A stretch of DNA of 62,604 bases from Candidatus Collierbacteria bacterium (GCA_903886255.1 CAISLM010000073.1:1-62604), one strand, 5' to 3'. Counted from the first letter of the stretch, positions 37,113 to 62,604 are shown. Notes: a model not told the origin generated them from the sequence alone. Made by a program: numbers and translations.

Positions 37113-37131
37113 AAATTCTGAGGAGGTTTCT

Positions 37132-37335: not shown

Positions 37336-37381
37336 AATACTCCACACCCACCCCACAATTTTCCCTCAGATTGCAGAAATT

Positions 37382-37404: not shown

Positions 37405-37564
37405 GCTATTTAAACACCTCAAAATACAGTATAATTCAGCCATCCGAAAACCTTAACATTCAGTTTGAGGAGAAACATGATTCTCACCACGATTGAGACC
37501 AGACTGGTCAAAGATCCCGCCAATCACCTGTTTTTTCCAAGCAAAAACCATAAAGGAGATTCTT

Positions 37565-38086
37565 ATGAAACGCCTCTTGTTTCTCACATGGATAATCTAT
37601 CTGATCGTGGGTGTCATCCTGGTTGTCACCAAATTCTTACCATCTTGTAATCCTGGCAGAGGCACAGGTTTGGAATGTGATTTCTCCGTCGGCAAACTCG
37701 CCAAAATCGATTCACCTGCCAAGATCATCATCTCCAGTTTCGACCCCTTCACTTTTGGCTACCGCAGCGCGTCGGTCGATGGTTGGGAAAAAGTCACCCC
37801 TCTAAATATCTATGGATTCTATTACCTAACCATAAACACCAAGGGACCGGTTGAAATGCAAATGTTCCAATCAGGCGGAGATACCAATGTTCCCTACATC
37901 AGGGTTAGTCAAATAACTGAAGGTCAATATCCATCGCTTTCTGTTTCCCGAACTTGGTACCACCCGCTTACCCAATTAGTCCAATGGTATTTATTTCCGG
38001 TGTTACTAATCGATATCGCTCTTTTTATCGCTTTTGCTTGGATCTTTTTTCACCGATTTTCAAAGCTGGGTTCCTCCGAGGAATAA
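37565..38086 (+). CDS. Membrane protein, 173 aa, with N- and C-terminal TM helices (cassette 3)
   Basis: SD AAAGGAG before ATG 37565; Cys pair in the extracellular loop. Confidence 0.72.
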   Translation: MKRLLFLTWIIYLIVGVILVVTKFLPSCNPGRGTGLECDFSVGKLAKIDSPAKIIISSFDPFTFGYRSASVDGWEKVTPLNIYGFYYLTINTKGPVEMQMFQSGGDTNVPYIRVSQITEGQYPSLSVSRTWYHPLTQLVQWYLFPVLLIDIALFIAFAWIFFHRFSKLGSSEE

Positions 38087-38090
38087 CACC

Positions 38091-38432
38091 ATGGATTATA
38101 AGCTTGTCCAAGCTGGTCCCCTTACCGAGCCCAATGAAGGTTTACTCATCGCCCTTAACTATCTCGCCAGTTTAGCTATTCAGTCGGGGACAGAAAAATT
38201 GGGCGACAAAAATCTACTCGTGAAAGACAATATACTCTATGTTAGATACAGCTACGGTCATCTAGCGATCAAACCCTCCGGAGCTACGGACACTCAAAAA
38301 CATTTTTGGGTTGATAACGATCTTCTTCCACTCCCCGGACTCTTTTCTATCGATCTAGAGGATATCCGTTCCATCGTTCGTCACCTCGACAAATTTCTGC
38401 TTCTGGCCGGTATCGACACTACCCGATTCTAA
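38091..38432 (+). CDS. Hypothetical protein, 113 aa; distant paralog of 36682
   Basis: SD GAGGA before ATG 38091; ALNYLA...GHLAIKPSG...FW. Confidence 0.7.
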   Translation: MDYKLVQAGPLTEPNEGLLIALNYLASLAIQSGTEKLGDKNLLVKDNILYVRYSYGHLAIKPSGATDTQKHFWVDNDLLPLPGLFSIDLEDIRSIVRHLDKFLLLAGIDTTRF

Positions 38433-38439
38433 ATTAATT

Positions 38440-38465
38440 ACCCACCCTTACCGGGCGGGTTTTTT
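38440..38465 (+). terminator. CCCACCC/GGGCGGG hairpin terminator, copy 3
   Basis: ACCCACCC-ttacc-GGGCGGGT-TTTTT. Confidence 0.8.
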
Positions 38466-38486
38466 CTGGTGTAAAATCTCTCCACC

Positions 38487-38993
38487 ATGTCTCCCGAGAA
38501 AGAAATTGATCATATCGAAAGAGAAAAAATATTCATTGGCCCTGTCGAAGTCGATTGTGATCCCAGTATGATCGCCCACTGTCTAGATCCATATCCTCGT
38601 CACCCCCATGGCTGCCCCAATTGGGGAAAAAAGGAGGGCTGTCCTCCCCATGTCCGTTTCTTTCCTCATGTCTATTCAACCGACGTTCATATTGCTGCCG
38701 TCCGCTTTAATTTTGCCGATTATCTAGAGCTTCGCCATCGTGATCATCCGAGCTGGACAGATAGAGCTCTGCGCAACCCTCTTTACTGGCAGGGTCATAT
38801 CCGTCACGAATTGAATCAATTTTTATTTGAATATCTCTCGACCCACCCGGAAATTCACGGTGAAATCGTTTTTAATCCCGAAGCCATGGGCGTCAATCTC
38901 TTTGTCACCTGTAAAAAGGCAGGCCTTAATCTCGAACAAACTCCTCGAAATAATGTTTACAAGATTGCCTTAATCGCGAACAAGTTAAACTAA
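38487..38993 (+). CDS. DUF2284-like predicted metal-binding protein
   Basis: CPNWGKKEGCPP and PEAMGVNLFVTCKKAG. Confidence 0.65.
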   Translation: MSPEKEIDHIEREKIFIGPVEVDCDPSMIAHCLDPYPRHPHGCPNWGKKEGCPPHVRFFPHVYSTDVHIAAVRFNFADYLELRHRDHPSWTDRALRNPLYWQGHIRHELNQFLFEYLSTHPEIHGEIVFNPEAMGVNLFVTCKKAGLNLEQTPRNNVYKIALIANKLN

Positions 38994-39022
38994 ATTCACT
39001 CCTAACTGATAAAATAAAACCA

Positions 39023-41810: not shown

Positions 41811-41901
41811 TGTGGCTGTTTCCATCTTGTATTCAGTTTGATTTTTCACTAAAATGAATCATCGGAGGTTATTAAACCTTCCTTGTTTGCGTACAACCTG
41901 C

Positions 41902-44900
41902 ATGAAATCTAATCATATATTAACTGGTCTAAAGAAGTATTTCTTTTCCCCTCGATTTCATTTCAATCGTTTTCAATTCAATTTAGTCGCAATCTTATTT
42001 ATCTCACTTGGACTAATTATCGGTTCGTACCTAACCCTCTCAAAAATTCTTCCCTCTGTCTTTGCTTCCACCAATGCTTCTGTCACCAAAGACACTGACA
42101 CCGATTTCAACCAAGGAAGTTATTCATCCTCTTTAATAATTTCTGGAATCGGTTCACCGGCCGCAGCCAAATTAATTGCCCTTCCCGCAAGTACTCCTTA
42201 CTGGAGAGCTATTACTATTAACAATGCTTCAAACTCGGCCACCCTCTCGGATTATCAAGTTCCGATTACCTTAGATACAGCCACCTTGATTTCGGGAGGT
42301 AAATTACAATCCGACTGTCGAGATATCCGTATTCAAGACTACAACGGAGTTGAAATTCCCAATTATTGGATCGAGAAATGCAATAGTGCCACTACAAAAA
42401 TCTGGGTAAAGGTTCCTAGTATCCCTGCCTCTTCTTCAAAAATTATTTATTTGTTTTATGGTTCCGGAGCAGGCACTTCGTCACAATCTTCGACCACAAA
42501 CACTTTCATCAGAGAAATAACTAATGTTGTTGGTTCGTGGGGCTTCGACGAAACTGTGGCAGGGACTACTTTAGCCGATAGATCGGGTAGGGGAAACAAT
42601 GGCACTGTCCAGAATGAACCACAATATATTATTGTTGACGGAAAATTTGGAAAAGCTAGGCTATCCGATGGAATGTACAACAGCTATTACTTCTTCGGGA
42701 CAAATCTGGCGATTTCTGGCAACGCCTCAATGAGTGCATCGATTTGGTTCGATTCAACTAAACCTGCCAGTGGTGTGAAATACTTTGGATATTTGGGGAA
42801 CGGCTATTCATATGACTCTTTTAGTTTGACGCTGGGATCGTATGGTCACTCTGGTGATAACAGATTAGGCATTGGGTATAACGGTAGTGGTGAGTATACC
42901 AGTGCCATCAATCAATTTACCCCAAATGTTTGGCACAATTTTGTTGGCACAAAAATGCCTGGCGCTGTAAATACTACCTCCAAACTCTATCTTGATGGTA
43001 CTGAAATTCAGTCTGAATTTGGTACTACCGGTACACCAAATTTTAATTTCACCAATAACTATTTCGATTTACAGGGAATGTTGCCAAACGTCGGGATTGA
43101 TGAATATATAATTTACAACAAGGCTTTATCCGCTGCAGAAGTTACCGATATCGCCAATAATTACGTCTATACCACCACCAACTACCCTGGAAAAGGTTTA
43201 GTGAAAAAATATTCATCGCCGGAACCGACATCATCCGCTGGCAGTGAACAGGGAGGTACTGTTTCGGGAACATGGGAATCTCCAACTGATTCAAATACAA
43301 TTGACCTTAGATGGAATGGTGGTTGGGGAGACGGGACCATCAGTTCACCTGCATTTTCTGCTGCCGTAACAAACGTCAATACCACCGACACGATTACCTT
43401 CGCCATGCGTGTCGCCACCTCATCTTCGTTACTTAGTTCATCCTCATACGTTACTATCGGAACAGTTAATTCAGGTACTACATTTACCAAAACCAAAGGA
43501 GATCTTGACGCACTAGGAATTGCCACAGGTAACAATCGTTATGCCCAAGTAAAAGCCACCATTTCTAAAACAACGGCAAATACAACACCCTCGCTTGATT
43601 CGTTTTCAATAAATTATCTTCGAGACAATAGTAACCCGGACGCAAACCCTGCCGTCACAGGTTACGCAAATAGCACCAAGGCAGTTCCGATCCCCAATAA
43701 TAGTTGGACAAATGTTAATGCGCCATATTTTCAATTCGCCAACGCCACCGATCCCGAATCAGGTATACAAGGTTACTGTGTTTATTTTGGAACAGATAGC
43801 TCTGCTGATCCAGCCACCACTAAAGGTTTACTTTCTACCTCTGAGCAGCCGATCGACAACAGTGCCTGTCCGTACGTCACCTATAACCCGTACATTGATT
43901 TATCGACTCACCTGGTTTCTCTCTTATCGACCAATACCACTTACTATCTCAATATTCGTTCCAAGGATTATCAAGGTAACCTTTATTCGAACAGTTCGTA
44001 TTCTACTTTTACTTATAAATTCGACAATACTTCCCCCGTTAATTTAACCGGAATCTCCGCCCCTCAAACCTATCAAAGCCAAGTAAATAGCTTCGTCGTC
44101 TATTGGGCCACCACGGGAGGCACTGCCGCGACAGATAATTTATCACAGGTCAAAGGCTATCAATATAAAATTAATAATGGCACCTGGTTCGGCAGCGGCC
44201 ACACTGGCACGCAAGACTGCACTGACCTCATTACCACCGGTTCTTATGCTCTAAACAACGCCTATGATTCACTAAATGTTGGCGAGAATACATTTTATTT
44301 ACGGGTCTATGATAATGCTTGCAACGTTTCGGCTACAAATATTTCTACCATTTTGAAATATTCCGGAATTGCCCCCACCGAGCCTCAAAATCTTCAGGTC
44401 AATCCATCTTCAAATACTCAAAACTCATTTGCTTTTTCTTGGTCTGTCCCGGCCACTTTCGCCGGACTACAAACGGGAATTAATTATTGTTATTCCACCA
44501 ACGCCTTACCCTCAAATGTTAATTGTTCCTGGACTAGTTCTACCACCTTGACAGCCGACGCTTACGCCACTCAACCGGGAGAAAATACCCTTTATGTTGT
44601 TGCCAAAGACGAGGCCGGCAATGTCAACTACAACGCTTATGCTTCGGTAAAATTTACTGCCAACACCTCAGCCCCGGGTGCACCTAGCAATCTCGACGTC
44701 TCTGACATTTCTATCAAAGCCACTTCAAACTGGAAGCTCACGGCTTCCTGGGATATTCCAACGGAAACAGGTGCTGGTGTTTCTGTGTATAAAATTTTCC
44801 GCAGTACGACAAATTCTGCCTGCACGACTTCTCTTTCTTCTTTTACTCAAATTGGTTCAACTGCCGGAACATCATATACCGATACCGGTTTAATTCAACA

Positions 44901-46242
44901 AACATATTATTATTGTGTTAAGGCCTGCGATTCAGCCAATAATTGTTCTGCCTCGTCAACCACGGTATCAAAATTACCTACCGGAAAATATTATTCCCCG
45001 GCCAATTTGGTCTCCTTACCGGTCATATCTTCAATTACTACCAAACGAGCCACAATTAGCTGGAGTACTGATCGAACATCCGATTCGAAAATCCAATTTG
45101 GCACAACTTCAGGGAGTTACAACGATGTCCAGCCAAGCAATTCTAGTCAAGTGACTTCACATTCAATCGAGTTAACAGGTTTAAATCCGGGGACGACTTA
45201 TTATTTCAAGGCCCAATGGACCGACGAGGATGGAAATACCGGTACTAGCGATGAACAGTCATTTTCAACCCAGCCTGCCCCAAGTGTTCAAGACGTTACC
45301 GCCGGAACCATCGGATTATCCTCAGCACTAGTTTCCTTCACTACTAACGGAGCTGACAGCGTCAAAATATATTATGGTACCACCACCAGTTTTGGGGGAG
45401 TGATCACAACGCAAACCTCAACGGCCCAGACAACATATACATCCCAGCTTACCGGTCTACTTGATGGCACAAAATATTATTTCAAAATAAATACATTTGA
45501 CTCTGATGGTACCGAATACGACGGAACTGTTTTGGATTTTACTACTCTTCCCAGACCAAAAATATCATCCGTTAGACTCGAACAAGTTGCTAATACAGCC
45601 CAAACAACAGTTCTCGTTACATGGTCAACGAATACAGAAGTTTCTTCAATCATCACCTATTATCCGGAAAATAATTTAACTGGCTCCAAAGACGAAGTTA
45701 AAGTTGCTCTCGAAAAAGGCCCTCACAGTATGTTCGTTAGAGGACTTTTGCCGCAAACAAATTACGCGTTAGTAGTTAGAGGACGAGACAAAATTGGCAA
45801 CGAAGCCATTTCAGATACTCAAACATTTACTACGGCAACCGACACTCGTCCGCCACAGATTATCAATCTTAAAGTTGTCGGTGGCACTGTCCCTCCGGTC
45901 GGTTTTGCAGCAGGCGAAGTCAAAGCCCAGCTGGTTATCACTTGGGATACCGACGAACCGGCCACTTCTCAAGTTGAGTTTGGTGAAGGTACTGGTTCTA
46001 CCTATGTCCAGAAATCTCAGGAGGACGGCAATCTCACCACCAACCATGCCGTCATTCTTTCAAATCTAACCCCGAGCCAGGTCTATCACTTGAGAGCTAT
46101 CTCCAAAGACGCTGCCGGTAACGAAGCTCAAAGTATTGACCAAGTTACCATTGCCCCCAAAGCCACCAAATCGGCTCTTGATTTGGTCGTCAAGAATCTT
46201 TCCGAAGCTTTCAGTTTTGTAGGTGCACTTAAATTACCATAA
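41902..46242 (+). CDS. Giant surface protein: TM anchor, DUF2341, LamG/ConA-like lectin, multiple fibronectin type III domains
   Basis: YQVPITLDTATLI...DCRDIRI...KIWVKVPSIPA (DUF2341); WGFDET..GTT..D.SG.GNNG...IDEYIIYNKALSAAEV (LamG); several L.GL.PGT.YY FN3 signatures. ATG 41902 preferred. Confidence 0.85.
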   Translation: MKSNHILTGLKKYFFSPRFHFNRFQFNLVAILFISLGLIIGSYLTLSKILPSVFASTNASVTKDTDTDFNQGSYSSSLIISGIGSPAAAKLIALPASTPYWRAITINNASNSATLSDYQVPITLDTATLISGGKLQSDCRDIRIQDYNGVEIPNYWIEKCNSATTKIWVKVPSIPASSSKIIYLFYGSGAGTSSQSSTTNTFIREITNVVGSWGFDETVAGTTLADRSGRGNNGTVQNEPQYIIVDGKFGKARLSDGMYNSYYFFGTNLAISGNASMSASIWFDSTKPASGVKYFGYLGNGYSYDSFSLTLGSYGHSGDNRLGIGYNGSGEYTSAINQFTPNVWHNFVGTKMPGAVNTTSKLYLDGTEIQSEFGTTGTPNFNFTNNYFDLQGMLPNVGIDEYIIYNKALSAAEVTDIANNYVYTTTNYPGKGLVKKYSSPEPTSSAGSEQGGTVSGTWESPTDSNTIDLRWNGGWGDGTISSPAFSAAVTNVNTTDTITFAMRVATSSSLLSSSSYVTIGTVNSGTTFTKTKGDLDALGIATGNNRYAQVKATISKTTANTTPSLDSFSINYLRDNSNPDANPAVTGYANSTKAVPIPNNSWTNVNAPYFQFANATDPESGIQGYCVYFGTDSSADPATTKGLLSTSEQPIDNSACPYVTYNPYIDLSTHLVSLLSTNTTYYLNIRSKDYQGNLYSNSSYSTFTYKFDNTSPVNLTGISAPQTYQSQVNSFVVYWATTGGTAATDNLSQVKGYQYKINNGTWFGSGHTGTQDCTDLITTGSYALNNAYDSLNVGENTFYLRVYDNACNVSATNISTILKYSGIAPTEPQNLQVNPSSNTQNSFAFSWSVPATFAGLQTGINYCYSTNALPSNVNCSWTSSTTLTADAYATQPGENTLYVVAKDEAGNVNYNAYASVKFTANTSAPGAPSNLDVSDISIKATSNWKLTASWDIPTETGAGVSVYKIFRSTTNSACTTSLSSFTQIGSTAGTSYTDTGLIQQTYYYCVKACDSANNCSASSTTVSKLPTGKYYSPANLVSLPVISSITTKRATISWSTDRTSDSKIQFGTTSGSYNDVQPSNSSQVTSHSIELTGLNPGTTYYFKAQWTDEDGNTGTSDEQSFSTQPAPSVQDVTAGTIGLSSALVSFTTNGADSVKIYYGTTTSFGGVITTQTSTAQTTYTSQLTGLLDGTKYYFKINTFDSDGTEYDGTVLDFTTLPRPKISSVRLEQVANTAQTTVLVTWSTNTEVSSIITYYPENNLTGSKDEVKVALEKGPHSMFVRGLLPQTNYALVVRGRDKIGNEAISDTQTFTTATDTRPPQIINLKVVGGTVPPVGFAAGEVKAQLVITWDTDEPATSQVEFGEGTGSTYVQKSQEDGNLTTNHAVILSNLTPSQVYHLRAISKDAAGNEAQSIDQVTIAPKATKSALDLVVKNLSEAFSFVGALKLP

Positions 46243-54099: not shown

Positions 54100-55257
54100 A
54101 TGAAAAACATAACAAAGCTTTTTGCTTGGCTCATACCTGCATTTTTATTTATTTTCTTTACGGCTCTCCCGGCCAACGCCTTCTATTTTCAGACAGGGAA
54201 CTCTATTGTTTTACCCAAGGGAAGTCCAATTAACGAAGCTGCACTAGTCACTGGATCATCGATCACAGTTGATTCTGATATCAATGGGGATCTCTACTGT
54301 GCCGGTCGTGATGTCGTCGTCAATGGCAATATCAAAGGCGACATAATTTGCGCATCACAAAGTCTCAAGGTGAATGGAACAGTAGACGGTAATATTCGTG
54401 CTGCCGGTCAAACGATTGAAGTGGCTGGCCAAGTTTCCAGAAACATTACTGTAGCTTCTCAAAGTCTGATTCTTGACCCAAAATCTATTATCAAAGGCGA
54501 TGTTTTTTTTGGTGTTCAAAATGTTGAGTTAAATGGTGCTATGAATCGTGACTTGGCCGGAGCAGGGGAAACAATTACTGTCGCAGGCTCCCTCCTAAGA
54601 AACGCCACAGTTACTGCCAGCAATCTTTCCGTCATAGAAACTGGCAAGATCGGAGGCAATCTCGATTATTATTTGGAAAAAACGGCTACCGCCTCTATCA
54701 ACGTCAAGAATATTAAAGGCACTGTTGTTCGCCATGATATTCAGACTCCTCAAAAAATGGAAGTTGAGAAAAAGGTAACGAAAGTTACCGGAATTGCTCT
54801 TGCTACAAAGATCATTTTTGGAATTATATCTTTCATGTTGTTAGGTCTGGCCCTGGTTTACTTCAATAGAGAAAATACAGAGAGAAGAATCGCCCTAATC
54901 CGGCAAAAACCATTGGTCTTGGCACTAATTGGCTTCGCTGTTCTTATCGTTGCACCAATTTTCTTTATTATTCTTTTCATCACTATTATTGGTATACCCT
55001 TCGCTTTCGTCGCCTTACTTGTATATATCGCGGCTCTTATCACCGCTTCTCTCTATCCATCCGCCCTTTACGGAAAATTATTCGTTGAAAAGATTTTCCA
55101 AAAAACAAATGTATCTATTGCCTGGCATATGGTTATCGGTGTTATTATCCTCGGGTTGTTATCAATCATCCCCATCATCGGTTGGATCATTGCCTTCATC
55201 TCATTCTGCTTAGGGCTGGGAGCTTTTGTGGCCTCACTTTCTCCTGAAAAGAAATAA
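54100..55257 (+). CDS. Bactofilin-like (polymer-forming) beta-helix protein with a multi-TM C-terminus
   Basis: Signal peptide; repeats GDLYCAG, GDIICAS, GNIRAAG, RDLAGAG; about 5 C-terminal TM helices. Confidence 0.7.
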   Translation: MKNITKLFAWLIPAFLFIFFTALPANAFYFQTGNSIVLPKGSPINEAALVTGSSITVDSDINGDLYCAGRDVVVNGNIKGDIICASQSLKVNGTVDGNIRAAGQTIEVAGQVSRNITVASQSLILDPKSIIKGDVFFGVQNVELNGAMNRDLAGAGETITVAGSLLRNATVTASNLSVIETGKIGGNLDYYLEKTATASINVKNIKGTVVRHDIQTPQKMEVEKKVTKVTGIALATKIIFGIISFMLLGLALVYFNRENTERRIALIRQKPLVLALIGFAVLIVAPIFFIILFITIIGIPFAFVALLVYIAALITASLYPSALYGKLFVEKIFQKTNVSIAWHMVIGVIILGLLSIIPIIGWIIAFISFCLGLGAFVASLSPEKK

Positions 55258-55291
55258 TGTAGAATTTAGTTATTACAAAACTTAAATTCTC

Positions 55292-56008
55292 ATGAAAGGA
55301 TTCTTAACGTTTCTGTTGGTTTTGGTCGTAGTAATTATTTTTATTGCTGGGCTCGCCGGTTTTATTCCCGGCCTATCAACAATTATGGGAACTAACAAAC
55401 CCAAAGATCTTGGAATAAGTATAACTAAAGAAGATTCAGCAAAGGCTCAAGAAAAATCTGGAGTCGTTTTAGTTGAGCTCCCTAAAGATACCCCCGTAGA
55501 AAATAGTTACCAACTTTCCGGCCAGCGAGCTGCCAGCTTTAGTTTTGATAGCAAAGAAGCCACTGGTGTTATTAATAATCGTCCTTGGAAGTATTATCCA
55601 TTTTATGATCTCCAGTTAAGAATCAACTCCGATGGAACCATAGAAACATCCGGCATGGTCGACATGTCTATCCTCATGAACTATGCGAAATCCCTGGGTT
55701 ATGCAACCGATGATGTGAATAGTGCTCTTAGTCAATATCACATTCCCAAAATGAATATGCCATTTTATGTCAAAGGCACCGGCAATATTATCGATAATAA
55801 AGTTACGATAAATGTCCAATCTTTAGAAGCCGGTAGAATTCCAATTCCTTCCGGAGTCCTCTCTTCCAATATGGACAGAATCAATTCATTTGCCCAAGAC
55901 ATAGTCGACAGACAAAAAGGCTTCTCTGCCAAGAAACTGGACGTCGAAGATGGAAAAATAGTTTTTGACGGCACCATGCCGGAAAAAGAATCAATTGTTG
56001 TTAAATAA
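55292..56008 (+). CDS. Membrane-anchored hypothetical protein
   Basis: N-terminal TM helix, soluble remainder; no motif recognised. Confidence 0.7.
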   Translation: MKGFLTFLLVLVVVIIFIAGLAGFIPGLSTIMGTNKPKDLGISITKEDSAKAQEKSGVVLVELPKDTPVENSYQLSGQRAASFSFDSKEATGVINNRPWKYYPFYDLQLRINSDGTIETSGMVDMSILMNYAKSLGYATDDVNSALSQYHIPKMNMPFYVKGTGNIIDNKVTINVQSLEAGRIPIPSGVLSSNMDRINSFAQDIVDRQKGFSAKKLDVEDGKIVFDGTMPEKESIVVK

Positions 56009-56016
56009 TAATAAAT

Positions 56017-56523
56017 ATGAAAAGAATTCTTCCCATAATTTTTCTCTCCCTAGCTCTTGCCGGTTGTCAAAAAACATCCTCAGCGCAAATAAATCCTACA
56101 CCAACAAAAACACAAGCCAACATTTTCACTTCCATCCAGGATGCAGTTAACAAACAGCTAATCCTAAAATGTAATTACACAGATGACACCGGCAGCCAAA
56201 TAACGACTTATATTAAAGGCAGTCTCGTCTATCTCAGGGGATCGGGTGACCAGGCTAGTGTCAGTGGTTTAATGCAAGAACATAAGTACTATATCTGGGC
56301 CGAGGGCAATAATAAAGGGATAGTTTTTGATCTGGACAAAATGATGGCGGATGGCACAGCCAAGATGGGGGACACTGTTATCAAATCGGAAAACGATATC
56401 ATTGCCAAGCTGGAAGAACAAAAACAAAAATGTCAGCTTAGTCCTGAATCGGGTTCTCTTTTTGATCTTCCTAAAAATGTTGACTTCCAATCCGGCGATA
56501 ACTTTTTTGGTTCATCAAAATAA
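56017..56523 (+). CDS. Putative lipoprotein
   Basis: Lipobox LALAGC. Confidence 0.75.
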   Translation: MKRILPIIFLSLALAGCQKTSSAQINPTPTKTQANIFTSIQDAVNKQLILKCNYTDDTGSQITTYIKGSLVYLRGSGDQASVSGLMQEHKYYIWAEGNNKGIVFDLDKMMADGTAKMGDTVIKSENDIIAKLEEQKQKCQLSPESGSLFDLPKNVDFQSGDNFFGSSK

Positions 56524-56532
56524 TCAAGACTA

Positions 56533-57090
56533 ATGAAAAAAGAAATAATTGGAATATTAATTGGAAGTCTTCTTCTCGCCGGTTGCCAGTCTTCCAAACC
56601 GGAAGTTAACCCCGCCGATTTAATTCCCTATGTTCATCTTGGTGCCTCACCTATAGTTACTACGCCTACTACAACTCCTACAATATCTATATCGGCAACA
56701 CCAACATCTTCTCCATCCGCAGACATACCGGCAGGAGATGAAAAAGAGTTATATAAAGTAATGAACGTTTATGGCTGCAGTCTCACTGATTCTGCTGATT
56801 TTACTTTGGATAAAGAATATCTGATTACCAAGCTTTATACCTGGTATACCTGGCAAACAAATGAAACAGAAGTTTCCTACGATGTTCTAAATGCTGGCAA
56901 GGTTATTGCCTCGGGAAAGTTAACTCGAGACGCTTGTGATCCATATCAAACTCAATGGTGCGGTGCCATAGATAAGTCGTTCAACAAAAATCTTGTAAAA
57001 GGGGATTACATCTTAAAATTGGCCTCGGTTCGTATTTGCCAAAATTCCCAAAGTAAAGGAAAGGGATTCATCATAATCTCCGGAAAATAA
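56533..57090 (+). CDS. Putative lipoprotein with Thr/Pro linker
   Basis: Lipobox LLLAGC; TTPTTTPT linker; four Cys in the C-terminal domain. Confidence 0.75.
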   Translation: MKKEIIGILIGSLLLAGCQSSKPEVNPADLIPYVHLGASPIVTTPTTTPTISISATPTSSPSADIPAGDEKELYKVMNVYGCSLTDSADFTLDKEYLITKLYTWYTWQTNETEVSYDVLNAGKVIASGKLTRDACDPYQTQWCGAIDKSFNKNLVKGDYILKLASVRICQNSQSKGKGFIIISGK

Positions 57091-57128
57091 AAATAATATT
57101 CTAATAACATTTTTGCTATCATAAATTA

Positions 57129-58142
57129 ATGAAAGAAAAAATTAAGATCGCAGTTTCGGATTTTTCTCCACTTGTTATTGAAAAAGATGGTAGTTTTTCC
57201 GGGTTTGAAATCGATTTGTGGGAGAGAATCGCCCAAAATGTCGATGTTGATTACCAGTATGAAAAGCATGACTTCCAAGAAATAATCCCTCTCCTAGCCG
57301 ACAAAAAAGTTGATATCGGTTTGGCGGGAATTACCATCAACGAACAACGAGAAGAATTAATCGATTTCTCCTATCCCGATTTGGACTCTGGATTACTCGT
57401 TTTAGTAAACAAAAAGAAAAAGAAAATAAAGTTTTTGGATACTATCAAAACATTTTTCAAAGAAGGGCGTAGGTTGATAACGCAAGCATTGATGTCTGTT
57501 TTGATATTTATTTTATTTTTCGGCAATCTCCTATGGCTTGCGGAGCGCAGTGCCAGCACTTTTAGTAAAAATTATTTTCCCGGCATCTTCGAATCCTTTT
57601 GGCTTGTAATTTGTTCTATGTCCACTGACAGTTTTGGTGATTACGTCCCCCATACATGGCTGGGGAGAATCATCATTGTTGGGATTATTGTCGGTGGTGT
57701 TGCCATTTTTGGTCTTCTTATTGCCCAAGTTACAGCTTTCCTCGCCGTCAAGAAAATTCAAAATGATATAAATAATTACCACGATTTGACCGGTAGAAAA
57801 GTTGGGACTAAATCCGGATCAACCAGCATAGGTATTCTTCAGAAAATCGGCTGTCAAATAATTCAGTCAAAAACCATGGCCGAGGCTTACCACAAGTTAA
57901 AAAACCTTGAATTGGATGCAGTTGTCTTTGACGCTCCTGCCCTGGTCTATCTTGTAAACAATGAAGAAACTCAATTAGAAACAGTTGGTGATATTTTTGA
58001 CAAGCAACGTTATGGTATAGCGATGCAGCAAGGGAGTCCGTTAAGAGAAAAAATCAACCAGGCATTATTAAAGATTAGAGAGTCAGGAGAATACGATAAT
58101 CTTTATAAGAAATGGTTTGGAGACAACGACTTCATGGACTAG
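57129..58142 (+). CDS. GluR0-like ligand-gated ion channel (amino-acid binding domain split by a 2-TM pore)
   Basis: GFEIDLW, ITINEQREELIDFSYP (S1); M1, FESFWLVICSMSTDSFGDYVP, M2; VGTKSGS, DAPALVY, YGIAM (S2). Confidence 0.88.
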   Translation: MKEKIKIAVSDFSPLVIEKDGSFSGFEIDLWERIAQNVDVDYQYEKHDFQEIIPLLADKKVDIGLAGITINEQREELIDFSYPDLDSGLLVLVNKKKKKIKFLDTIKTFFKEGRRLITQALMSVLIFILFFGNLLWLAERSASTFSKNYFPGIFESFWLVICSMSTDSFGDYVPHTWLGRIIIVGIIVGGVAIFGLLIAQVTAFLAVKKIQNDINNYHDLTGRKVGTKSGSTSIGILQKIGCQIIQSKTMAEAYHKLKNLELDAVVFDAPALVYLVNNEETQLETVGDIFDKQRYGIAMQQGSPLREKINQALLKIRESGEYDNLYKKWFGDNDFMD

Positions 58143-58455: not shown

Positions 58456-59058
58456 TCAAGGATTTACGGCATCGGCAAAAACAATCAACCGTTTACTATA
58501 ACTTTTTATATTCTTATTCCACACCCCATCACAAGTAATCAAGTTAAGGTGAGCCCCATCATTTTGACTAAATACTTCATCTGCGAGGCCCGGATTGTAT
58601 GCCTGCTTATCTCGAACTACAAAAACAAAAGTATTTCCTTGATCATCTTTTACCGTTAAAAAATCGCCCTTCACCAGTTTGTCTAAATTTGCAAATACCC
58701 CCGCTTCACCCAACTTTCCGTCCAAATGCCCTGCGATTACCGCACTACCCACTTCACCGGGGCGGGATCCCGGTTTAAACCATCCCACATCGACTATATT
58801 ATCCGGAACTTCCATTTGACCGGTTACTGATACGCCTAAGAGTTGAATATTTGCATTAACACCAATAGCCGGTATCCAAAGCTGCAAAGGTACACCGATT
58901 TTTACTTTTTGTCTAGGCTTAATGCTTAAAATTTGATTTTCAACTATCTGATATTTAGTAAAACTTTGGTAGACAAATCCGTAAGAAACGAACATTAGTA
59001 TCAAAGAAACTACCAAGAGGATATTTATAAATGAAGAACTCCGAACTTTATCTTTCAA
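58456..59058 (-). CDS. Class F sortase
   Basis: VGWFKPGSRPGEVGSAVIAGHLD, LNLITCDG, RLIVFA; TTG start overlaps the upstream TGA (TTGA). Confidence 0.9.
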   Translation of the reverse strand: MKDKVRSSSFINILLVVSLILMFVSYGFVYQSFTKYQIVENQILSIKPRQKVKIGVPLQLWIPAIGVNANIQLLGVSVTGQMEVPDNIVDVGWFKPGSRPGEVGSAVIAGHLDGKLGEAGVFANLDKLVKGDFLTVKDDQGNTFVFVVRDKQAYNPGLADEVFSQNDGAHLNLITCDGVWNKNIKSYSKRLIVFADAVNP

Positions 59059-60320
59059 TGTTTCGATGAATATCTATTTTTTCTCTGGAAGGTTGCGAGT
59101 ATAACCATTCCCGTCAACACACCGACACTAATGTATAAGGGTGTATTGTTTTCATTTGGATTAGCCCCGGTATTTGGTAGTCCTGGTGCTCCAACGAGCT
59201 TGGCCTGTCCTGTTGATGATATCTGGCCATAAGGCCCTATTTGACAGTCATTCCTTGCTGCCACCTGTACCCAGATTGGCTGATTTGCCGGAAGTGAACT
59301 GATAGTTGTCGAAAATCCTGTGACGTCAACGTTATAGATTAAGTTTCCCTCAGTCGTGCCATATCGGACATTAAATTTGTCGGTTCCGGAATAAGGACCC
59401 CAGCTTAGATAAATACTATTGGCATCAACTCTATGCGAATCAATTATTGCCGGTGCAACTACCCCGGGGATGATGGTCGGGCAAACATACACGGGTGGCA
59501 TTGCACCACCCGCAATTGAAGTAGGAATTGAAGTGGAAATTGGTGCTGGAGTCGTACAGGTAGGTTTTGAGATCTTTGTGTTGTTAATCGTTACATCTGC
59601 TGTATTTACCAAAAACCTTCCGTTAATTGTAGAACCACCATTATCAACAATTGATGCATTGGCCATTACTGTTCCTACGAACGTACTGCCGGTACCAAAC
59701 GTGGCGGAGGTTGGGACATACCAAAAGACATTACACGCTTGAGCACCATTTACTAGCGAAACAACACTTGATGAGGCAGTAATCAGGTCGGAGGCAGCTT
59801 GAAAAATAAAAACAGAATTGGAATTTCCCTGACCGTCAAGAGTTAATGTTCCGGTCAGATTAGCGGTTGTGGCATGGCTAAATCGATAAACACCATCGGT
59901 CAGTGTCTGGGTACCCAGTTGGTTGTCGCCTCCAGCCAGTGTTGTAAATGGTGTTCTCCCTCCTGCGTCACCATACGCCGTAGTCACATCACCTACCGCC
60001 GTGGTTAAAAGTCCTGGATCGGTTACTCTGCACGGGAGTGGCCCTGAACCGTCCACAGAATATATCGTTCCTGTAACCTCTGCGCAGGTAATTGTTGGAG
60101 AAGATGACCCCCAACCTGCTGGACTTAAACCAACGTTACCGGTGACAGTTGAAAGAACTGAATCAATCATGTGTGAATGAGCAATAATCGCAAACGGATC
60201 TGCAGTTCCCAGATTTACCGTTGTTGTTGCCGCCAAAACTGGTGTAGTCGCTCCAGAAAATATATAGGCAAAAATCAATAAAAATGCGGAAAATATCGTG
60301 GAAATTTTTTTAATTTTCAT
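59055..60320 (-). CDS. Ice-binding-family (DUF3494) protein with FN3-like domain and LPNTG sorting signal
   Basis: NLGTADPFAII, AYGDAGGR, NSVFIFQ, NGAQACNVFW; C-terminal LPNTG (59166-59180), TM helix and basic tail QRKNR. Confidence 0.9.
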   Translation of the reverse strand: MKIKKISTIFSAFLLIFAYIFSGATTPVLAATTTVNLGTADPFAIIAHSHMIDSVLSTVTGNVGLSPAGWGSSSPTITCAEVTGTIYSVDGSGPLPCRVTDPGLLTTAVGDVTTAYGDAGGRTPFTTLAGGDNQLGTQTLTDGVYRFSHATTANLTGTLTLDGQGNSNSVFIFQAASDLITASSSVVSLVNGAQACNVFWYVPTSATFGTGSTFVGTVMANASIVDNGGSTINGRFLVNTADVTINNTKISKPTCTTPAPISTSIPTSIAGGAMPPVYVCPTIIPGVVAPAIIDSHRVDANSIYLSWGPYSGTDKFNVRYGTTEGNLIYNVDVTGFSTTISSLPANQPIWVQVAARNDCQIGPYGQISSTGQAKLVGAPGLPNTGANPNENNTPLYISVGVLTGMVILATFQRKNRYSSKH

Positions 60321-60346
60321 ACCCTTTTCAAGATAATTATATATTC

Positions 60347-60374
60347 AGTCTATCAATTTTTATAGAAAAGTCAA
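60347..60374 (-). promoter_or_regulatory. Promoter of the 59055 IBP / sortase F pair
   Basis: Minus strand TTGACT-16 nt-TAGACT with extended TG. Confidence 0.5.
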
Positions 60375-60415
60375 GCGTGAAATGTAAAATATATCACAAA
60401 CAAAACAAACAGAAT

Positions 60416-61690
60416 TTAATGCTTGTTTCGAAAGAACACTAGCAGACCGGAAACAATTACAAATATGGCGACCGGAAGATACCAAGGCTTATCTTCACCG
60501 TTTGGGTCAAATCCGGTATTCGGCAAACCGGGATTACCGGTGTTCGGTAACCCTGGAGCCCCTGAATTTGTTGAAGCCACTCCACCCACTAATTTTGCTC
60601 CACCGTAATTTCCAATTTGGCAGTCATTTCTCGCCGCTATCTCCACCCAAATGGGCTGGTTGGAAGGCAGAGAATTAATTGTTGTTGAAAACCCGGTGAC
60701 GTCAGTGTTGTATAACCAATTTCCGTTCGTCGGACCAAATTTGACGTTAAATTTATCTGTTCCGGAAAAAGGACCCCAATTGATAAAAATGCTCGTCGCG
60801 CTAACTCTTCTCGATTCCGTAATGATAGGGGGAACAACACCCGTATCAATTGTCGGACAAACCGGATTCGGCGCCCCGCCGGAAGAGGTCGTTGTGGATG
60901 TGGAATTATCCGAAGATGTTGTTGTGGTTGATGTTTGGGTCGGTGTCGCAGTTGGGGTCGGTGTCGGAGCAACGGAACACGTTGTATCGATCGTATCCGT
61001 TGTTGTCGAAACTGTACCTCCAAACGCCAAAGCTCTTCCTTTCCATGTTACCGTGCTTCCGATTGTTATTCCGGAGGCATCAATGTCGGTACCCATCAAA
61101 GTGGAGTTTGCTCCCAATGTTGTCGCGCTGGTCGGCGCCCAAAATACATCACACGATGACGCCCCGTTAGAAAGTGTGACCACAGAACTGGAAACTGTCG
61201 TAAACGCGCCATTAATTTTAAATATATAAGTTCCGCTTCCCGATAAAGTTATTCCACCTGACCCAATCGAAGCCGCGCTGGCAGCTCCGGTGCAATACAC
61301 GCCCGGACCATAAATTCCGGCAGTACCATGTGTCGTGTCGGTCGAAAGATCAATTGCCCCTGCCGTGAAGGTAAAAGTACAGGCCTGTCCGTTTAGATTA
61401 GTCAAGGCGGAACCTTGGTCTGTCCCTGCCGTACTATATGTCCCATCGGCAACATGTGTTGTGCCGCTCACGGTGGGTGCCACTCCCGGAGGTGTGGTAT
61501 ATCCGAGGTCTCCGGTAATCGTGGTCCCTGAAACTGTATTGGTATAAGTACTGGAAAGAATTCCAAAGCTAGCCGCCTGTCCCAGATTTGGATTTGTTGC
61601 CGCATAAACAGGATTCTCAAGTAAGAAAAATACTAATGCAAATATAGTCAATAATTTCAAAATCGGAGCGTTATACTGTTTATTTTTCAT
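60416..61690 (-). CDS. Ice-binding-family (DUF3494) protein, paralog 2, with Thr-rich linker, FN3-like domain and tandem LPNTG motifs
   Basis: NLGQAASFGILS, GTYIFKING, NGASSCDVFW, GRALAFGG; GLPNTGNPGLPNTG, TM helix and FRNKH tail. Confidence 0.88.
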   Translation of the reverse strand: MKNKQYNAPILKLLTIFALVFFLLENPVYAATNPNLGQAASFGILSSTYTNTVSGTTITGDLGYTTPPGVAPTVSGTTHVADGTYSTAGTDQGSALTNLNGQACTFTFTAGAIDLSTDTTHGTAGIYGPGVYCTGAASAASIGSGGITLSGSGTYIFKINGAFTTVSSSVVTLSNGASSCDVFWAPTSATTLGANSTLMGTDIDASGITIGSTVTWKGRALAFGGTVSTTTDTIDTTCSVAPTPTPTATPTQTSTTTTSSDNSTSTTTSSGGAPNPVCPTIDTGVVPPIITESRRVSATSIFINWGPFSGTDKFNVKFGPTNGNWLYNTDVTGFSTTINSLPSNQPIWVEIAARNDCQIGNYGGAKLVGGVASTNSGAPGLPNTGNPGLPNTGFDPNGEDKPWYLPVAIFVIVSGLLVFFRNKH

Positions 61691-61691
61691 A

Positions 61692-62603
61692 TTAACACCT
61701 CAATATCTTCCAGAACATAATAAAAATTGAAATAATCAAAAGCGAGGATATTATTGAGTTCAAAGGACTATTAAACAAACTTGCGACCATCGAAAATATA
61801 TTTTGTTTGAATGTTGGCGACGCCTGAGAATTAATCGTCGAGGATTTGCCGCCTGCCGTCGGGGTCGGTGTCAACTTAGGTGTAATCGCTGTTTGTGGCA
61901 ATAATGGCTTCGCAATCACTTTAGCTGGCTGTGTTTTTACTACGACCGCTCCTTCAGATGGTATCGCATCCGTAAAAACTACCCGTCGATCCGGATAGCT
62001 GTCATTAACCTTATTCCAAACTCCTTCGCATGTGATGACATTCAAATGAGCCAATCCATCATTAGAGATAAAAACACTAGAGGAATCGGCATTTCTGTCA
62101 AACAATTTAATGGACTTTACAACAAAGGCTAAAGTATTGTTATTATCATCAACGATGTAGACTTTGTCGCCTACTTCCAACTTGCTTAAATTATAAAAAA
62201 CTTTTGGCACACCATTATCGATTCCGTAATGTCCTCCAATGACGGCGCTTCCCGGTTGGCCGGGGCGGGGACCGAGAGCATACCAGGCCACATTTACCGA
62301 TCCGGCCGGAACATCCATTCGCCCGTCCGGGGTAATATAAGCATCTTCAATGGCCGAATCCACGCCAATAACCGGAATTTTTAAACGAACCGGAAGTCCC
62401 CGGGGAACACCCCCCGGGTCCCGAATACTTGAATATGCAGAAGTATTAATTACTTGCCCTCCGGTGGTTAATAATGCAGATGGTATTTTCCAGCCCAGTG
62501 ATGAATCGGTCAGTGTTGGGTTAGTTTGGACAGTTTGCGGCAGGAATAACTGATTTCTAAACATCAACACCGTTCCAACTAGCACAAAGACAACCAATAT
62601 TGA
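61692..62603 (-). CDS. Class F sortase with Pro/Thr linker and C-terminal TM; 5' end lies beyond the window
   Basis: VAWYALGPRPGQPGSAVIGGHYG, LNVITCEG, RRVVF; the frame stays open to the window edge. Confidence 0.88.
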   Translation of the reverse strand, partial: SILVVFVLVGTVLMFRNQLFLPQTVQTNPTLTDSSLGWKIPSALLTTGGQVINTSAYSSIRDPGGVPRGLPVRLKIPVIGVDSAIEDAYITPDGRMDVPAGSVNVAWYALGPRPGQPGSAVIGGHYGIDNGVPKVFYNLSKLEVGDKVYIVDDNNNTLAFVVKSIKLFDRNADSSSVFISNDGLAHLNVITCEGVWNKVNDSYPDRRVVFTDAIPSEGAVVVKTQPAKVIAKPLLPQTAITPKLTPTPTAGGKSSTINSQASPTFKQNIFSMVASLFNSPLNSIISSLLIISIFIMFWKILRC

Positions 62604-62604
62604 A

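What the first reader, a model, noticed from the sequence alone, without database searches (positions are those of the whole stretch)
58456..62603. Sortase F / ice-binding protein / ice-binding protein / sortase F cluster: sortase-anchored DUF3494 adhesins in a CPR organism
Seen: four co-oriented minus-strand genes forming two tightly coupled pairs (1-nt gap; TTGA overlap). Both DUF3494 proteins have a signal peptide, a nearly shared FN3-like domain, then LPNTG, a TM helix and a basic tail. Both sortases keep the His/Cys/Arg triad and class F context. Established: DUF3494 domains bind ice and are often adhesins; sortases ligate LPxTG substrates to peptidoglycan or to other proteins. Inference: a dedicated, duplicated system displaying ice-binding/adhesin domains on an ultrasmall episymbiont, or ligating them to pili or to a host wall. 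I do not know of this pairing being described in CPR.
Basis: partly seen in the sequence, partly recalled or inferred. Interest (0 to 1): 0.78.

Follow-up and report, generated by a model that had tools for sequence, protein, structure and literature searches.

The report
Sortase-anchored DUF3494 surface proteins, two modules
A tiny lake bacterium of the Microgenomates (CPR) group carries two gene pairs, each a sortase enzyme next to the "ice-binding-type" surface protein it most likely fastens to the cell wall. The same pairing is widespread but apparently undescribed in CPR bacteria and Actinomycetota, so it offers likely natural substrates for the poorly understood class F sortases.

Summary
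Four co-oriented minus-strand genes encode sortase / DUF3494 protein / DUF3494 protein / sortase. The 1-nt gap and the TTGA overlap are as described. Both DUF3494 proteins have a signal peptide, an FN3-fold stalk, LPNTG, a TM segment and a basic tail. Both sortases keep His/Cys/Arg.

Corrections:
- srt2 lacks its first 10 codons, cut off by the window edge.
- The FN3 domains are 68% identical, not nearly the same.
- IBP-B has two tandem LPNTG motifs.
- Class F is the best NCBIfam match for both sortases but scores below the curated cut-off.

The host is a Microgenomates bacterium: no L30 gene, and ribosomal proteins cluster with Collierbacteria and Woesebacteria.

The pairing is not special to CPR. 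In 62 of 80 species-representative loci, from Patescibacteria and Actinomycetota, a class-F-type sortase gene directly adjoins the DUF3494 gene. Single-ORF fusions also exist.

The two pairs are not a simple duplication. Module A is a single-motif IBP-A with a short sortase. Module B is a long sortase with two anchors, a double-motif IBP-B, and a DUF7507 protein (FPMTG tail) just outside the window.

Ice binding is plausible for IBP-A (38% identical to ColAFP in the Foldseek alignment, TM-score 0.89) but untested, and orthologous loci occur in groundwater. I found no paper describing the pairing. Verdict: a new variant of a known kind, of moderate interest.

The parts
58456..59058 (-). srt1: short class-F-like sortase (200 aa) with an N-terminal basic stretch and one TM segment (aa 11-29). 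Catalytic residues H111, C176, R190. Its TTG start overlaps the IBP-A stop (TTGA).
   Evidence: Pfam Sortase E 1e-22. NCBIfam class F is the best hit at 115 bits, below the 166 cut-off. Hydropathy. Residue conservation. NCBI names close homologs 'class F sortase' in Curtissbacteria and Daviesbacteria.
59055..60320 (-). IBP-A (421 aa). Signal peptide aa 1-30 (VLA|A). DUF3494 head aa ~34-254, with the Cys79/Cys97 cap loop shared with ColAFP. FN3-fold stalk aa 279-366. LPNTG aa 381-385 (nt 59166-59180). TM aa 393-411. Tail QRKNRYSSKH.
   Evidence: PF11999 E 2e-48. PDB phmmer hit to 3WP9 at E 3e-38. Model and Foldseek. 79 of 120 homologs end in LPNTG. Coordinates.
60347..60374 (-). Promoter-like site TTGACT-16-TAGACT (TG-extended) in the 95-nt gap upstream of IBP-A. 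A consensus match only.
   Evidence: The number of such sites in the region is not above the shuffled expectation.
60401..60430 (-). Weak terminator-like hairpin plus T-run across the IBP-B stop codon. A consensus match only.
60416..61690 (-). IBP-B (424 aa). Signal peptide aa 1-30 (VYA|A). Divergent DUF3494 head aa 48-234 without the cap-loop cysteines. T/S/P-rich linker. FN3-fold stalk aa 277-364. Tandem double sorting motif LPNTG-NPG-LPNTG (nt 60512-60550). TM aa 402-420. Tail RNKH.
   Evidence: PF11999 E 5e-21. Comparison with IBP-A. The double motif is present in 6 of the 7 nearest full-length homologs. Coordinates.
61692..62604 (-). srt2: long class-F-like sortase, cut by the window edge (full length 311 aa). 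N-terminal TM, catalytic core (H123, C190, R204 in window numbering), P/T-rich linker and a second, C-terminal TM (nt 61701-61757). A 1-nt gap separates it from IBP-B.
   Evidence: Pfam Sortase E 2e-17. Class F is the best hit at 107 bits. Full length from L001. Hydropathy. Model with a sortase barrel and terminal helices. Orthologs in L010, L013, L024, L085 and L087.

Best explanation
The region encodes two dedicated sortase-substrate modules of a conserved cassette.

Common pathway. Each DUF3494 protein is exported by Sec and held in the membrane by its C-terminal TM segment and basic tail. The neighbouring class-F-like sortase (Cys thiol, His/Arg triad) cuts it between Thr and Gly of LPNTG. 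The protein is then transferred to an amine acceptor, most likely the peptidoglycan precursor. The result is a beta-solenoid DUF3494 head displayed on an FN3 stalk at the surface of a single-membrane, wall-bearing Microgenomates cell.

Module A (IBP-A and srt1) is the common form of the cassette, shared with many Patescibacteria and Actinomycetota.

Module B is a rarer, three-part form. It consists of a long sortase anchored at both ends (srt2), IBP-B with two tandem sorting motifs, and a DUF7507 Ig-like protein with an FPMTG signal just outside the window. The two motifs suggest two successive sortase reactions.

What is shown and what is inferred. Shown: the domains, the sorting signals, the catalytic residues, the conserved adjacency and the fusions. 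Inferred: cleavage by these particular sortases, the acceptor, and what the head binds. Ice is plausible for IBP-A, but a more general surface-binding or coat role fits the distribution at least as well.
For: - Domains and signals.
- In GTDB species representatives, 62 of 80 DUF3494 loci have a co-directional sortase gene within 200 nt, often overlapping by 4 nt. By group: 25 of 29 CPR-labelled, 9 of 9 with doubtful labels, 28 of 41 Actinomycetota.
- All 56 neighbouring sortases put into alignment A2 have class F as their top NCBIfam family.
- Head and sortase divergences are correlated across loci (Mantel r 0.40; 0 of 999 permutations reached it).
- At least 8 independent single-ORF fusions of the form DUF3494-stalk-L/FPxTG-sortase.
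- These are the only two sorting-signal ORFs in the 62.6 kb window.
- The window also carries MltG, which indicates a peptidoglycan wall, and a third sortase that is not class F. This suggests srt1 and srt2 are specialised.
- Module B: a long srt2-type sortase co-occurs with a double-motif IBP in 6 loci. One locus has the long sortase alone, none has the double motif alone, and 76 have neither.
- The DUF7507 protein recurs next to the long sortase in L001 and L087.
- The orthologous locus in a groundwater Collierbacteria has the same neighbours (PAS kinase, DUF5670).
Against: - There is no biochemical evidence for cleavage, for the acceptor, or for which sortase acts on which protein.
- Both window motifs of IBP-B, and that of IBP-A, are the same LPNTG, so motif sequence alone does not explain two sortases here.
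- Both sortases score below NCBIfam's class F cut-off.
- Co-variation of head and sortase is weak within CPR (r 0.18).
- No RNA data could be found.
- The promoter and terminator calls are at chance level.
- The locus counts are not phylogenetically independent.
- Only part of the genome was seen, so a complete lipid II pathway is assumed from MltG and from general knowledge of CPR.
Confidence: 0.62

Rival explanations
1. Ice adhesin. The wall-anchored DUF3494 heads bind ice. They would hold the cell to lake ice or shape nearby ice to protect it during freezing. This concerns what the head does, so it is compatible with the anchoring mechanism above.
For: - IBP-A matches experimentally studied ice binders closely: phmmer E 3e-38 to ColAFP (3WP9), Foldseek TM-score 0.89-0.90 and 38% identity to ColAFP and FfIBP. 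The Cys-Cys cap loop is conserved.
- All sequencing runs holding the locus are lake-water metagenomes. One contig name (BUCK21-1) points, by inference, to a dataset of lakes and ponds described as 'mainly located in the...' (abstract cut off there in the search listing). That these are boreal or subarctic, seasonally ice-covered lakes is my recollection, not read here.
- Many relatives come from soil, peat and permafrost MAGs.
- Surface-tethered ice binders are known: SfIBP_1 (6BG8 appears among the hits) and MpIBP (from my own knowledge).
Against: - Ice-binding faces are highly divergent in sequence, so activity cannot be read from homology (PMC5673226).
- The orthologous locus occurs in groundwater metagenomes. 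I take these, from the GW2011 protein naming and my own knowledge, to be the Rifle aquifer, which does not freeze. Other relatives come from groundwater MAGs.
- IBP-B's head is 60-77% identical across Patescibacteria, Acidimicrobiales, Dormibacteraeota and archaeal Nitrosotalea. That level of conservation is unusual for ice-binding faces.
- Both proteins fall far below the NCBIfam IBP equivalog cut-off (168 and 32 bits against 400).
Confidence: 0.35
2. Sortase-assembled fibre. Module B is a pilus-like system. The long sortase, anchored at both ends, would polymerise the DUF7507 Ig-like protein and join IBP-B to it as a tip. srt1, or the third sortase, would then fix the polymer to the wall. 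The double motif would give one site for polymer linkage and one for wall linkage.
For: - The gene set resembles Gram-positive pilus islands: an Ig-like protein with a sorting signal, a dedicated sortase with N- and C-terminal TM segments (the topology of class C sortases), and an adhesin-like protein.
- The long sortase and the double motif co-occur strictly.
- Motif 1 is often FPNTG in orthologs. The DUF7507 protein ends in FPMTG or FPNAG. Motif 2 resembles IBP-A's LPNTGFAP.
Against: - No pilin motif, E-box or lid was identified.
- srt2 is closest to class F, not class C: 107 bits against 23 bits.
- The Foldseek hits do not discriminate between sortase classes.
- In the window both IBP-B motifs are LPNTG.
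- The sample is only 6-7 related loci.
Confidence: 0.2
3. Processing or release rather than wall anchoring. The sortases would act mainly as site-specific proteases, or would transfer the protein to water or a small amine. This would release soluble DUF3494 protein or attach it to a non-peptidoglycan acceptor.
For: - Fusion proteins in which LPNTG is followed directly by the sortase domain, with no TM segment (P0058, P0024, L051), could not stay membrane-bound. They look self-processing.
- Many homologs have a short amphipathic tail in place of a TM segment and basic tail.
- Most characterised DUF3494 ice binders are secreted proteins (my own knowledge).
Against: - The window proteins have canonical tripartite sorting signals.
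- A peptidoglycan enzyme, MltG, is present.
- Transpeptidation to the wall is the established outcome for such signals (PMC8225981).
Confidence: 0.1
4. Chance neighbours. The sortase and DUF3494 genes are adjacent without any functional link.
For: None beyond the general density of CPR genomes.
Against: Adjacency in 62 of 80 loci across two phyla, start/stop overlaps, fusions, and complete sorting signals.
Confidence: 0.02

Closest known systems
Class F sortases of Actinomycetota (SrtF of Cutibacterium acnes; SrtF1-4 of Actinoplanes missouriensis)
   Same: Class F is the best NCBIfam match. Shared features are the His/Cys/Arg triad, an N-terminal membrane anchor, and LPXTG-type substrates. In A. 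missouriensis two srtF genes also lie next to genes for unknown secreted proteins with a TM segment and basic tail, which the authors suggest as substrates (PMC13251363).
   Different: The window enzymes score below the curated class F cut-off and come from CPR. Each is paired with a specific substrate, unlike the housekeeping C. acnes enzyme. srt2 has an extra P/T-rich linker and a C-terminal TM segment. The physiological role of class F is stated to be unknown.
DUF3494 ice-binding proteins ColAFP (3WP9) and FfIBP (4NU2)
   Same: IBP-A has the same right-handed beta-solenoid with a flanking helix (TM-score 0.89-0.90). It is 38% identical to both in the Foldseek alignments and conserves the disulfide-type cap loop.
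   Different: As far as I know, those proteins have no FN3 stalk, LPXTG signal or partner sortase. Their ice activity has been measured; here it has not. IBP-B is much more divergent (NCBIfam 32 bits) and lacks the cap cysteines.
Surface-tethered ice adhesins (SfIBP_1 of Shewanella frigidimarina; MpIBP of Marinomonas primoryensis)
   Same: An ice-binding head held away from the cell on Ig-like or FN3-like stalk domains. The SfIBP_1 head is a DUF3494 domain (6BG8).
   Different: The anchoring differs: a lipoprotein or type-1-secreted RTX adhesin in Gram-negative bacteria (my own knowledge), against sortase-mediated covalent wall linkage here.
Sortase-assembled pili of Gram-positive bacteria (SpaA type, class C sortases)
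   Same: A cluster with an Ig-like protein bearing a sorting signal, a dedicated sortase with TM segments at both ends, an adhesin-like protein, and a further sortase elsewhere in the genome.
   Different: The sortase is class-F-like. No pilin motif or lid was found. A tandem double sorting motif is not a known feature of pilins.
Alternative C-terminal sorting systems carrying the same head (PEFG-CTERM in Thaumarchaeota)
   Same: The IBP-B-type head is 49-63% identical in Nitrosotalea proteins. JGI names two of them 'predicted secreted protein with PEFG-CTERM motif', and the others end in similar PEFG + TM tails.
   Different: The anchoring chemistry and enzyme differ. My reading that PEFG-CTERM is an archaeosortase-type signal, as opposed to sortase here, comes from my own knowledge.

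Membership tests
DUF3494 / Ice_binding (PF11999) | Match to the Pfam model above the gathering score | tested here: met
   165.2 and 75.9 bits against a cut-off of 28.7
DUF3494 / Ice_binding (PF11999) | Beta-solenoid with a flanking alpha-helix | tested here: met
   IBP-A model has pLDDT 88-97 over the head and TM-score 0.89-0.90 to 3WP9 and 4NU2. IBP-B was not modelled.
Ice-binding protein (functional class; NCBIfam IBP_CFB NF045625) | Score above the equivalog cut-off | tested here: not met
   168 and 32 bits against a cut-off of 400
Ice-binding protein (functional class) | Thermal hysteresis, ice recrystallisation inhibition or ice shaping | not testable with these tools
   The ice-binding face is not conserved in sequence among proven ice binders (PMC5673226).
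Sortase (PF04203 / peptidase C60) | Pfam match plus the His-Cys-Arg triad | tested here: met
   80.6 and 63.7 bits against 26.6. H111/C176/R190 in srt1 and H123/C190/R204 in srt2 are invariant in 33 CPR relatives. The srt2 model has a sortase-barrel fold.
Class F sortase (NCBIfam NF033748) | Score above the curated subfamily cut-off (166 bits) | tested here: not met
   115.1 and 106.8 bits. Class F is still the best family by more than 70 bits, and NCBI names close homologs 'class F sortase'. Best described as class-F-like.
Sortase substrate (cell-wall sorting signal) | LPXTG-type pentapeptide, then a hydrophobic segment, then a positively charged tail, plus an N-terminal signal peptide | tested here: met
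   The LPNTG signal is conserved in 79 of 120 homologs.
Sortase substrate (cell-wall sorting signal) | Cleavage at Thr-Gly and transfer to peptidoglycan | not testable with these tools
   Needs enzymology or cell-wall mass spectrometry.
Fibronectin type III domain | Pfam PF00041 match | tested here: not met
   No hit at E 0.01. A few homologs do hit PF00041.
Fibronectin type III domain | FN3 beta-sandwich fold | tested here: met
   Residues ~290-360 of the model match FN3 structures at Foldseek E 1.6e-4 to 7e-4 and TM-score 0.6-0.75.
Candidate Phyla Radiation / Microgenomates | No ribosomal protein L30 gene between S5 and L15, and marker proteins that cluster with CPR genomes | tested here: met
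   S5 at 35421-35951 is followed directly by L15 at 36012-36461. S4, S5, L6 and L17 fall in 90% clusters with proteins named Microgenomates group, Collierbacteria or Woesebacteria.
Sortase-assembled pilus (class C system) | Class C sortase with a lid; pilin motif Lys and E-box in the subunit | tested here: inconclusive
   srt2 scores 23 bits on class C against 107 on class F. It has the two-TM topology. No lid or pilin motif was recognised by eye, and no formal search was possible.

The most novel reading that the evidence does not exclude
Module B would be a two-sortase relay acting on a tandem double sorting signal. One motif would be used by the long, doubly anchored class-F-like sortase to join IBP-B to another protein, such as the DUF7507 Ig-like protein, giving a CPR-type covalent fibre or surface lattice. 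The other motif would be used by a short sortase for wall attachment or timed release. The related single-ORF proteins, in which the substrate, the L/FPxTG motif and the sortase are fused, would be self-anchoring, single-turnover 'cis-sortases'. Either case would be a sortase mechanism not described before, and would be the first physiological role assigned to class F sortases.
Probability: 0.2. Interest if true: 0.8.

Novelty: new variant of a known kind. Interest (0 to 1): 0.55.

Why it matters
A 2026 study still describes class F sortases as having no known physiological role (PMC13251363). A conserved DUF3494-sortase F cassette, found across Patescibacteria and Actinomycetota, supplies candidate cognate substrates that can be tested directly.

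For CPR bacteria, whose surface biology is largely unknown, it identifies an abundant, conserved and covalently displayed surface protein. It also identifies a rarer three-part module with a double sorting signal.

For the ice-binding field, it defines a large set of DUF3494 proteins from lakes, soils, peat and aquifers. Measuring their activity would show whether the fold is mainly an ice binder or a general surface-binding module.

Tried and rejected
- Rfam and tRNA scans of the window found nothing.
- Promoter and terminator scans were at chance level, so the two-operon reading stays tentative.
- The search for RNA runs holding IBP-A returned none, so there is no expression evidence.
- I tried to judge ice-binding activity from sequence and gave up.
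- Recent gene conversion as the cause of the similar FN3 domains is rejected. DNA identity is 67%, and only 26 of 62 conserved residues use the same codon.
- A simple tandem duplication is rejected. The two sortases are 45% identical and belong to different conserved ortholog groups; the two heads are 38% identical.
- PDB sequence and fold searches could not assign the sortases to a solved class. The best profile hit is E 2e-9 to a class D enzyme, and Foldseek mixes classes A, C, D and E.
- Several GTDB records carrying the FN3-type architecture are labelled 'uncultured Gammaproteobacteria', 'Pseudomonadales' or 'Sulfotelmatobacter'. I treated these labels as doubtful and counted the loci separately.
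- Five literature searches for any description of the pairing found nothing relevant.

Full report
**1. What is in the sequence**

The last 4.1 kb of the window holds four co-oriented minus-strand ORFs:
- srt1, 58456-59058, 200 aa
- IBP-A, 59055-60320, 421 aa
- IBP-B, 60416-61690, 424 aa
- srt2, 61692-62597, 301 aa

The IBP-A stop and the srt1 start overlap as TTGA. The srt2 stop and the IBP-B start are separated by one base (TAA-T-ATG).

srt2 has no stop codon upstream before the window ends. On longer public contigs carrying the identical locus it is 311 aa, so the window lacks its first 10 codons.

The TTG start of srt1 is preferable to the shorter gene-caller models of 186 or 179 aa. It gives a basic N-terminus followed by a TM segment, as in orthologs, and 4-nt overlaps are common in related loci.

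**2. Domains**

- Pfam places both middle proteins in PF11999 (Ice_binding/DUF3494; E 2e-48 and 5e-21). Both outer proteins fall in PF04203 (Sortase; E 1e-22 and 2e-17).
- In NCBIfam, class F is by far the best sortase family for both outer proteins: 115 and 107 bits, with the next family at 32 or less. Both are below the curated cut-off of 166. The ice-binding equivalog model is also far from met (168 and 32 bits against 400).
- Both DUF3494 proteins begin with a K-rich stretch, a hydrophobic core and a V-x-A|A site.
- Both end with LPNTG, a 19-residue hydrophobic segment and a K/R-containing tail. IBP-B carries the motif twice, as LPNTG-NPG-LPNTG.
- These are the only ORFs in the 62.6 kb window with such a signal.
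- An AlphaFold model of IBP-A, built on 34 homologs (mean pLDDT 80.7), shows a head that superposes on the ice binders ColAFP and FfIBP (TM-score 0.89-0.90, 38% identity). A second domain matches FN3 structures (TM-score 0.6-0.75).
- IBP-A keeps the two cysteines of the ColAFP cap loop; IBP-B does not.
- The two FN3 domains are 68% identical in protein and 67% in DNA, and only 26 of 62 conserved residues use the same codon. They are conserved by selection, not recently copied. The heads are 38% identical.
- The two sortase cores are 45% identical. His and Cys are invariant in 56 neighbouring sortases. His, Cys and Arg are invariant in 33 CPR relatives.
- srt1 has one N-terminal TM segment. srt2 has an N-terminal TM, a P/T-rich linker and a second TM at its C-terminus.

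**3. The organism**

The window carries rpoB/rpoC-sized ORFs and the ribosomal protein operons. S5 is followed directly by L15 with no L30 gene, which I recall as a hallmark of CPR. Its S4, S5, L6 and L17 proteins fall in 90%-identity clusters with proteins named Microgenomates group bacterium, Candidatus Collierbacteria and Candidatus Woesebacteria.

All sequencing runs that hold the locus are lake-water metagenomes. [quoted passage not shown] The listing of that abstract is cut off before the location; that they are mainly boreal and subarctic is my recollection.

The window also encodes MltG (TIGR00247, 198.6 bits against 103.4), which argues for a peptidoglycan wall. It further encodes a third sortase at 3427-4176 that passes the general sortase model but is not class F.

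**4. The pairing is a widespread cassette**

- IBP-A has thousands of homologs. Of the best 120, 79 end in LPNTG plus a hydrophobic tail, within a conserved KLVGGPxLPNTGFAP context. Those that carry names are from Shapirobacteria, Collierbacteria and Daviesbacteria.
- A scan of one genome per GTDB species found at least 587 relatives. The best 80 are Patescibacteria (Levyibacteriota, Collier-, Shapiro-, Woese- and Magasanikbacteria, Saccharibacteria, Paceibacterota) and Actinomycetota (mostly Acidimicrobiales, plus a few cultured actinomycetes).
- I called ORFs in these loci and searched them with HMMs built here. In 62 of 80 loci a co-directional sortase gene lies within 200 nt of the DUF3494 gene. 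It is usually immediately downstream and often overlaps by 4 nt. By group: 25 of 29 CPR-labelled, 9 of 9 with doubtful taxonomic labels, 28 of 41 Actinomycetota. Some of the rest are cut by contig ends.
- I aligned 56 sortases that adjoin DUF3494 genes: the window's two plus 54 from the survey loci. All 56 have class F as their best NCBIfam family.
- The sorting motif differs by lineage: LPNTG, FPNTG or LPDTG in CPR; FPHTG, SPHTG or APxTG in Acidimicrobiales.
- Head and sortase divergences correlate across loci (Mantel r 0.40, 0 of 999 permutations). The correlation is weak within CPR (r 0.18). Heads are more conserved between the phyla than the sortases are (52% against 33% identity).
- At least eight independent proteins are single-ORF fusions of DUF3494, a stalk, L/FPxTG and a sortase domain, several with no TM segment in between.

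Taken together, this is strong comparative evidence that these sortases act on their DUF3494 neighbours.

**5. Two different modules**

Short sortases of srt1 type (about 190-215 aa) accompany single-motif IBP-A-type proteins in most Microgenomates-type loci.

Long sortases of srt2 type (270-311 aa) form a separate ortholog group. They share the conserved FGWKIP...IEDAYITPDGRMDVPAGSVNVAWYALGPRPGQ stretch and a P/T-rich C-terminal extension with a hydrophobic or amphipathic end. They are seen in L001, L010, L013, L024, L085 and L087. Each of these loci also has an IBP-B-type protein with a tandem double sorting motif.

- both features: 6 loci
- long sortase only: 1 locus
- double motif only: 0 loci
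- neither: 76 loci

Six of IBP-B's seven nearest full-length homologs have the double motif. It is typically pGFPNTG followed by P(r/g)LPxTGF.

Just outside the window, one base upstream of srt2, lies a 292-aa secreted protein. It has two DUF7507 (DUF11-like, Ig-type) domains and a tail reading AFPMTGG, a TM segment and KRKLKGK. In a Patescibacteria MAG, a closely similar ortholog (by eye, from the sequences printed) ending in FPNAG sits between the double-motif IBP and the long sortase.

The orthologous locus in a groundwater Collierbacteria has the same flanking genes as here. It contains two IBPs and three sortases in yet another order.

So the region is not a duplicated pair. It is a common module (IBP-A with srt1) next to a rarer three-part module (DUF7507 protein, srt2, IBP-B).

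**6. Mechanism**

The best-supported reading has four steps:
1. Sec export.
2. Retention by the C-terminal anchor.
3. Cleavage at LPNT|G by the adjacent class-F-like sortase.
4. Transfer to the wall precursor, which displays the DUF3494 head on an FN3 stalk.

The chemistry is inferred from the established behaviour of sortases and tripartite sorting signals (PMC8225981). It was not tested here.

The double motif, the doubly anchored sortase and the Ig-like partner suggest either two successive sortase reactions or a covalent heteropolymer. This is a hypothesis only.

**7. Ice or not**

Points for ice binding:
- IBP-A is as similar to ColAFP and FfIBP as proven ice binders are to one another.
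- It comes from lakes that I take to freeze seasonally (see section 3).

Points against:
- Ice-binding faces are not conserved in sequence.
- Orthologous loci occur in groundwater metagenomes. I take these to be an aquifer that does not freeze, from the GW2011 naming and my own knowledge.
- The IBP-B-type head is 60-77% identical across distant bacterial lineages. It is 49-63% identical in Nitrosotalea archaea, where it is joined to a PEFG-CTERM tail instead. This looks more like a general surface module that is attached by whatever anchor the host uses.

I put ice binding by IBP-A at roughly one in three to one in two. For IBP-B I put it lower.

**8. Novelty**

Sortase anchoring and DUF3494 proteins are both well known, and databases already label the individual genes. 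In the searchable literature no paper contains both "DUF3494" and "sortase". None links ice-binding proteins to CPR.

A 2026 study states that the physiological roles of class F sortases are unknown. It only remarks that two srtF genes in Actinoplanes lie next to unknown secreted proteins.

The cassette is therefore a new variant of a known kind. It is of moderate interest overall. The interest would be higher if the double-motif module proves to work by a two-sortase relay, or if the fusions prove to be self-anchoring.

Noticed in passing
window 3427-4176 (+), with 1251-3425 (+): A third sortase (249 aa). It passes the general sortase model TIGR01076 but is not class F (23 bits). It starts 2 nt after a 724-aa membrane protein that has no family hit and no sorting signal.
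   Followed up: partly
window 5882-6871 (+): MltG/YceG endolytic transglycosylase (TIGR00247, 198.6 bits against a cut-off of 103.4). This indicates that the organism makes peptidoglycan.
   Followed up: partly
window 35421-36461 (+): Ribosomal protein S5 is followed directly by L15 with no L30 gene, which I recall as a CPR hallmark.
   Followed up: yes
window ~36600-39000 (+): About 2.5 kb between L15 and SecY holds five ORFs with no Pfam match (one weak DUF2284 hit). AT skew changes sign at 38-40 kb. This is an unusual insertion in the conserved spc operon.
   Followed up: no
window 41854-46242 (+): A 1462-aa protein with DUF2341 and FN3-type domains, probably another large surface protein.
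   Followed up: no
L001 1590-2468 (just beyond the window end) and L087 7163-8086: A secreted protein with two DUF7507/DUF11-like domains and an FPMTG or FPNAG + TM + basic tail. It is closely similar between the two loci and always lies beside the long sortase.
   Followed up: partly
P0024, P0041, P0058, P0064, P0107, P0349, P0372; L051 1314-3170: Single-ORF fusions of a DUF3494 head, a stalk, L/FPxTG and a sortase catalytic domain. Several have no TM segment between the motif and the enzyme. They may be self-processing.
   Followed up: partly
L031, L038, L067, L077, L079, L083; P0393, P0398, P0406, P0422, P0430: DUF3494 proteins, in mostly Actinomycetota-labelled records, that have no neighbouring sortase and end exactly in ...FTG or ...VTG, with no hydrophobic tail. 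This C-terminal ending is unexplained.
   Followed up: no
P0323, P0335, P0340, P0346, P0359, P0369, P0389: Archaeal (Nitrosotalea) proteins whose head is 49-63% identical to IBP-B. They carry a PEFG-type C-terminal sorting tail instead of LPXTG.
   Followed up: no
P0015, P0016, P0018, P0026, P0029, P0032 and others; C-termini of the long sortases in L010, L024 and L085: Many IBP-A homologs have a short amphipathic tail (for example LFIFLNQIKNWFL) after LPNTG, in place of a TM segment and basic tail. A similar tail ends some long sortases.
   Followed up: no
alignment A2, column of srt1 R190: In 19 of the 56 sortases in alignment A2 the catalytic Arg column reads Asn. I did not check which taxa these are, and it may be an alignment shift.
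   Followed up: no
window 54100-58142 (+): The neighbours of the cluster are a bactofilin-DUF8173 membrane protein, three small proteins without Pfam hits on record (two with lipobox-like LAGC motifs), and a GluR0-like ligand-gated ion channel (SBP_bac_3 + Lig_chan).
   Followed up: no
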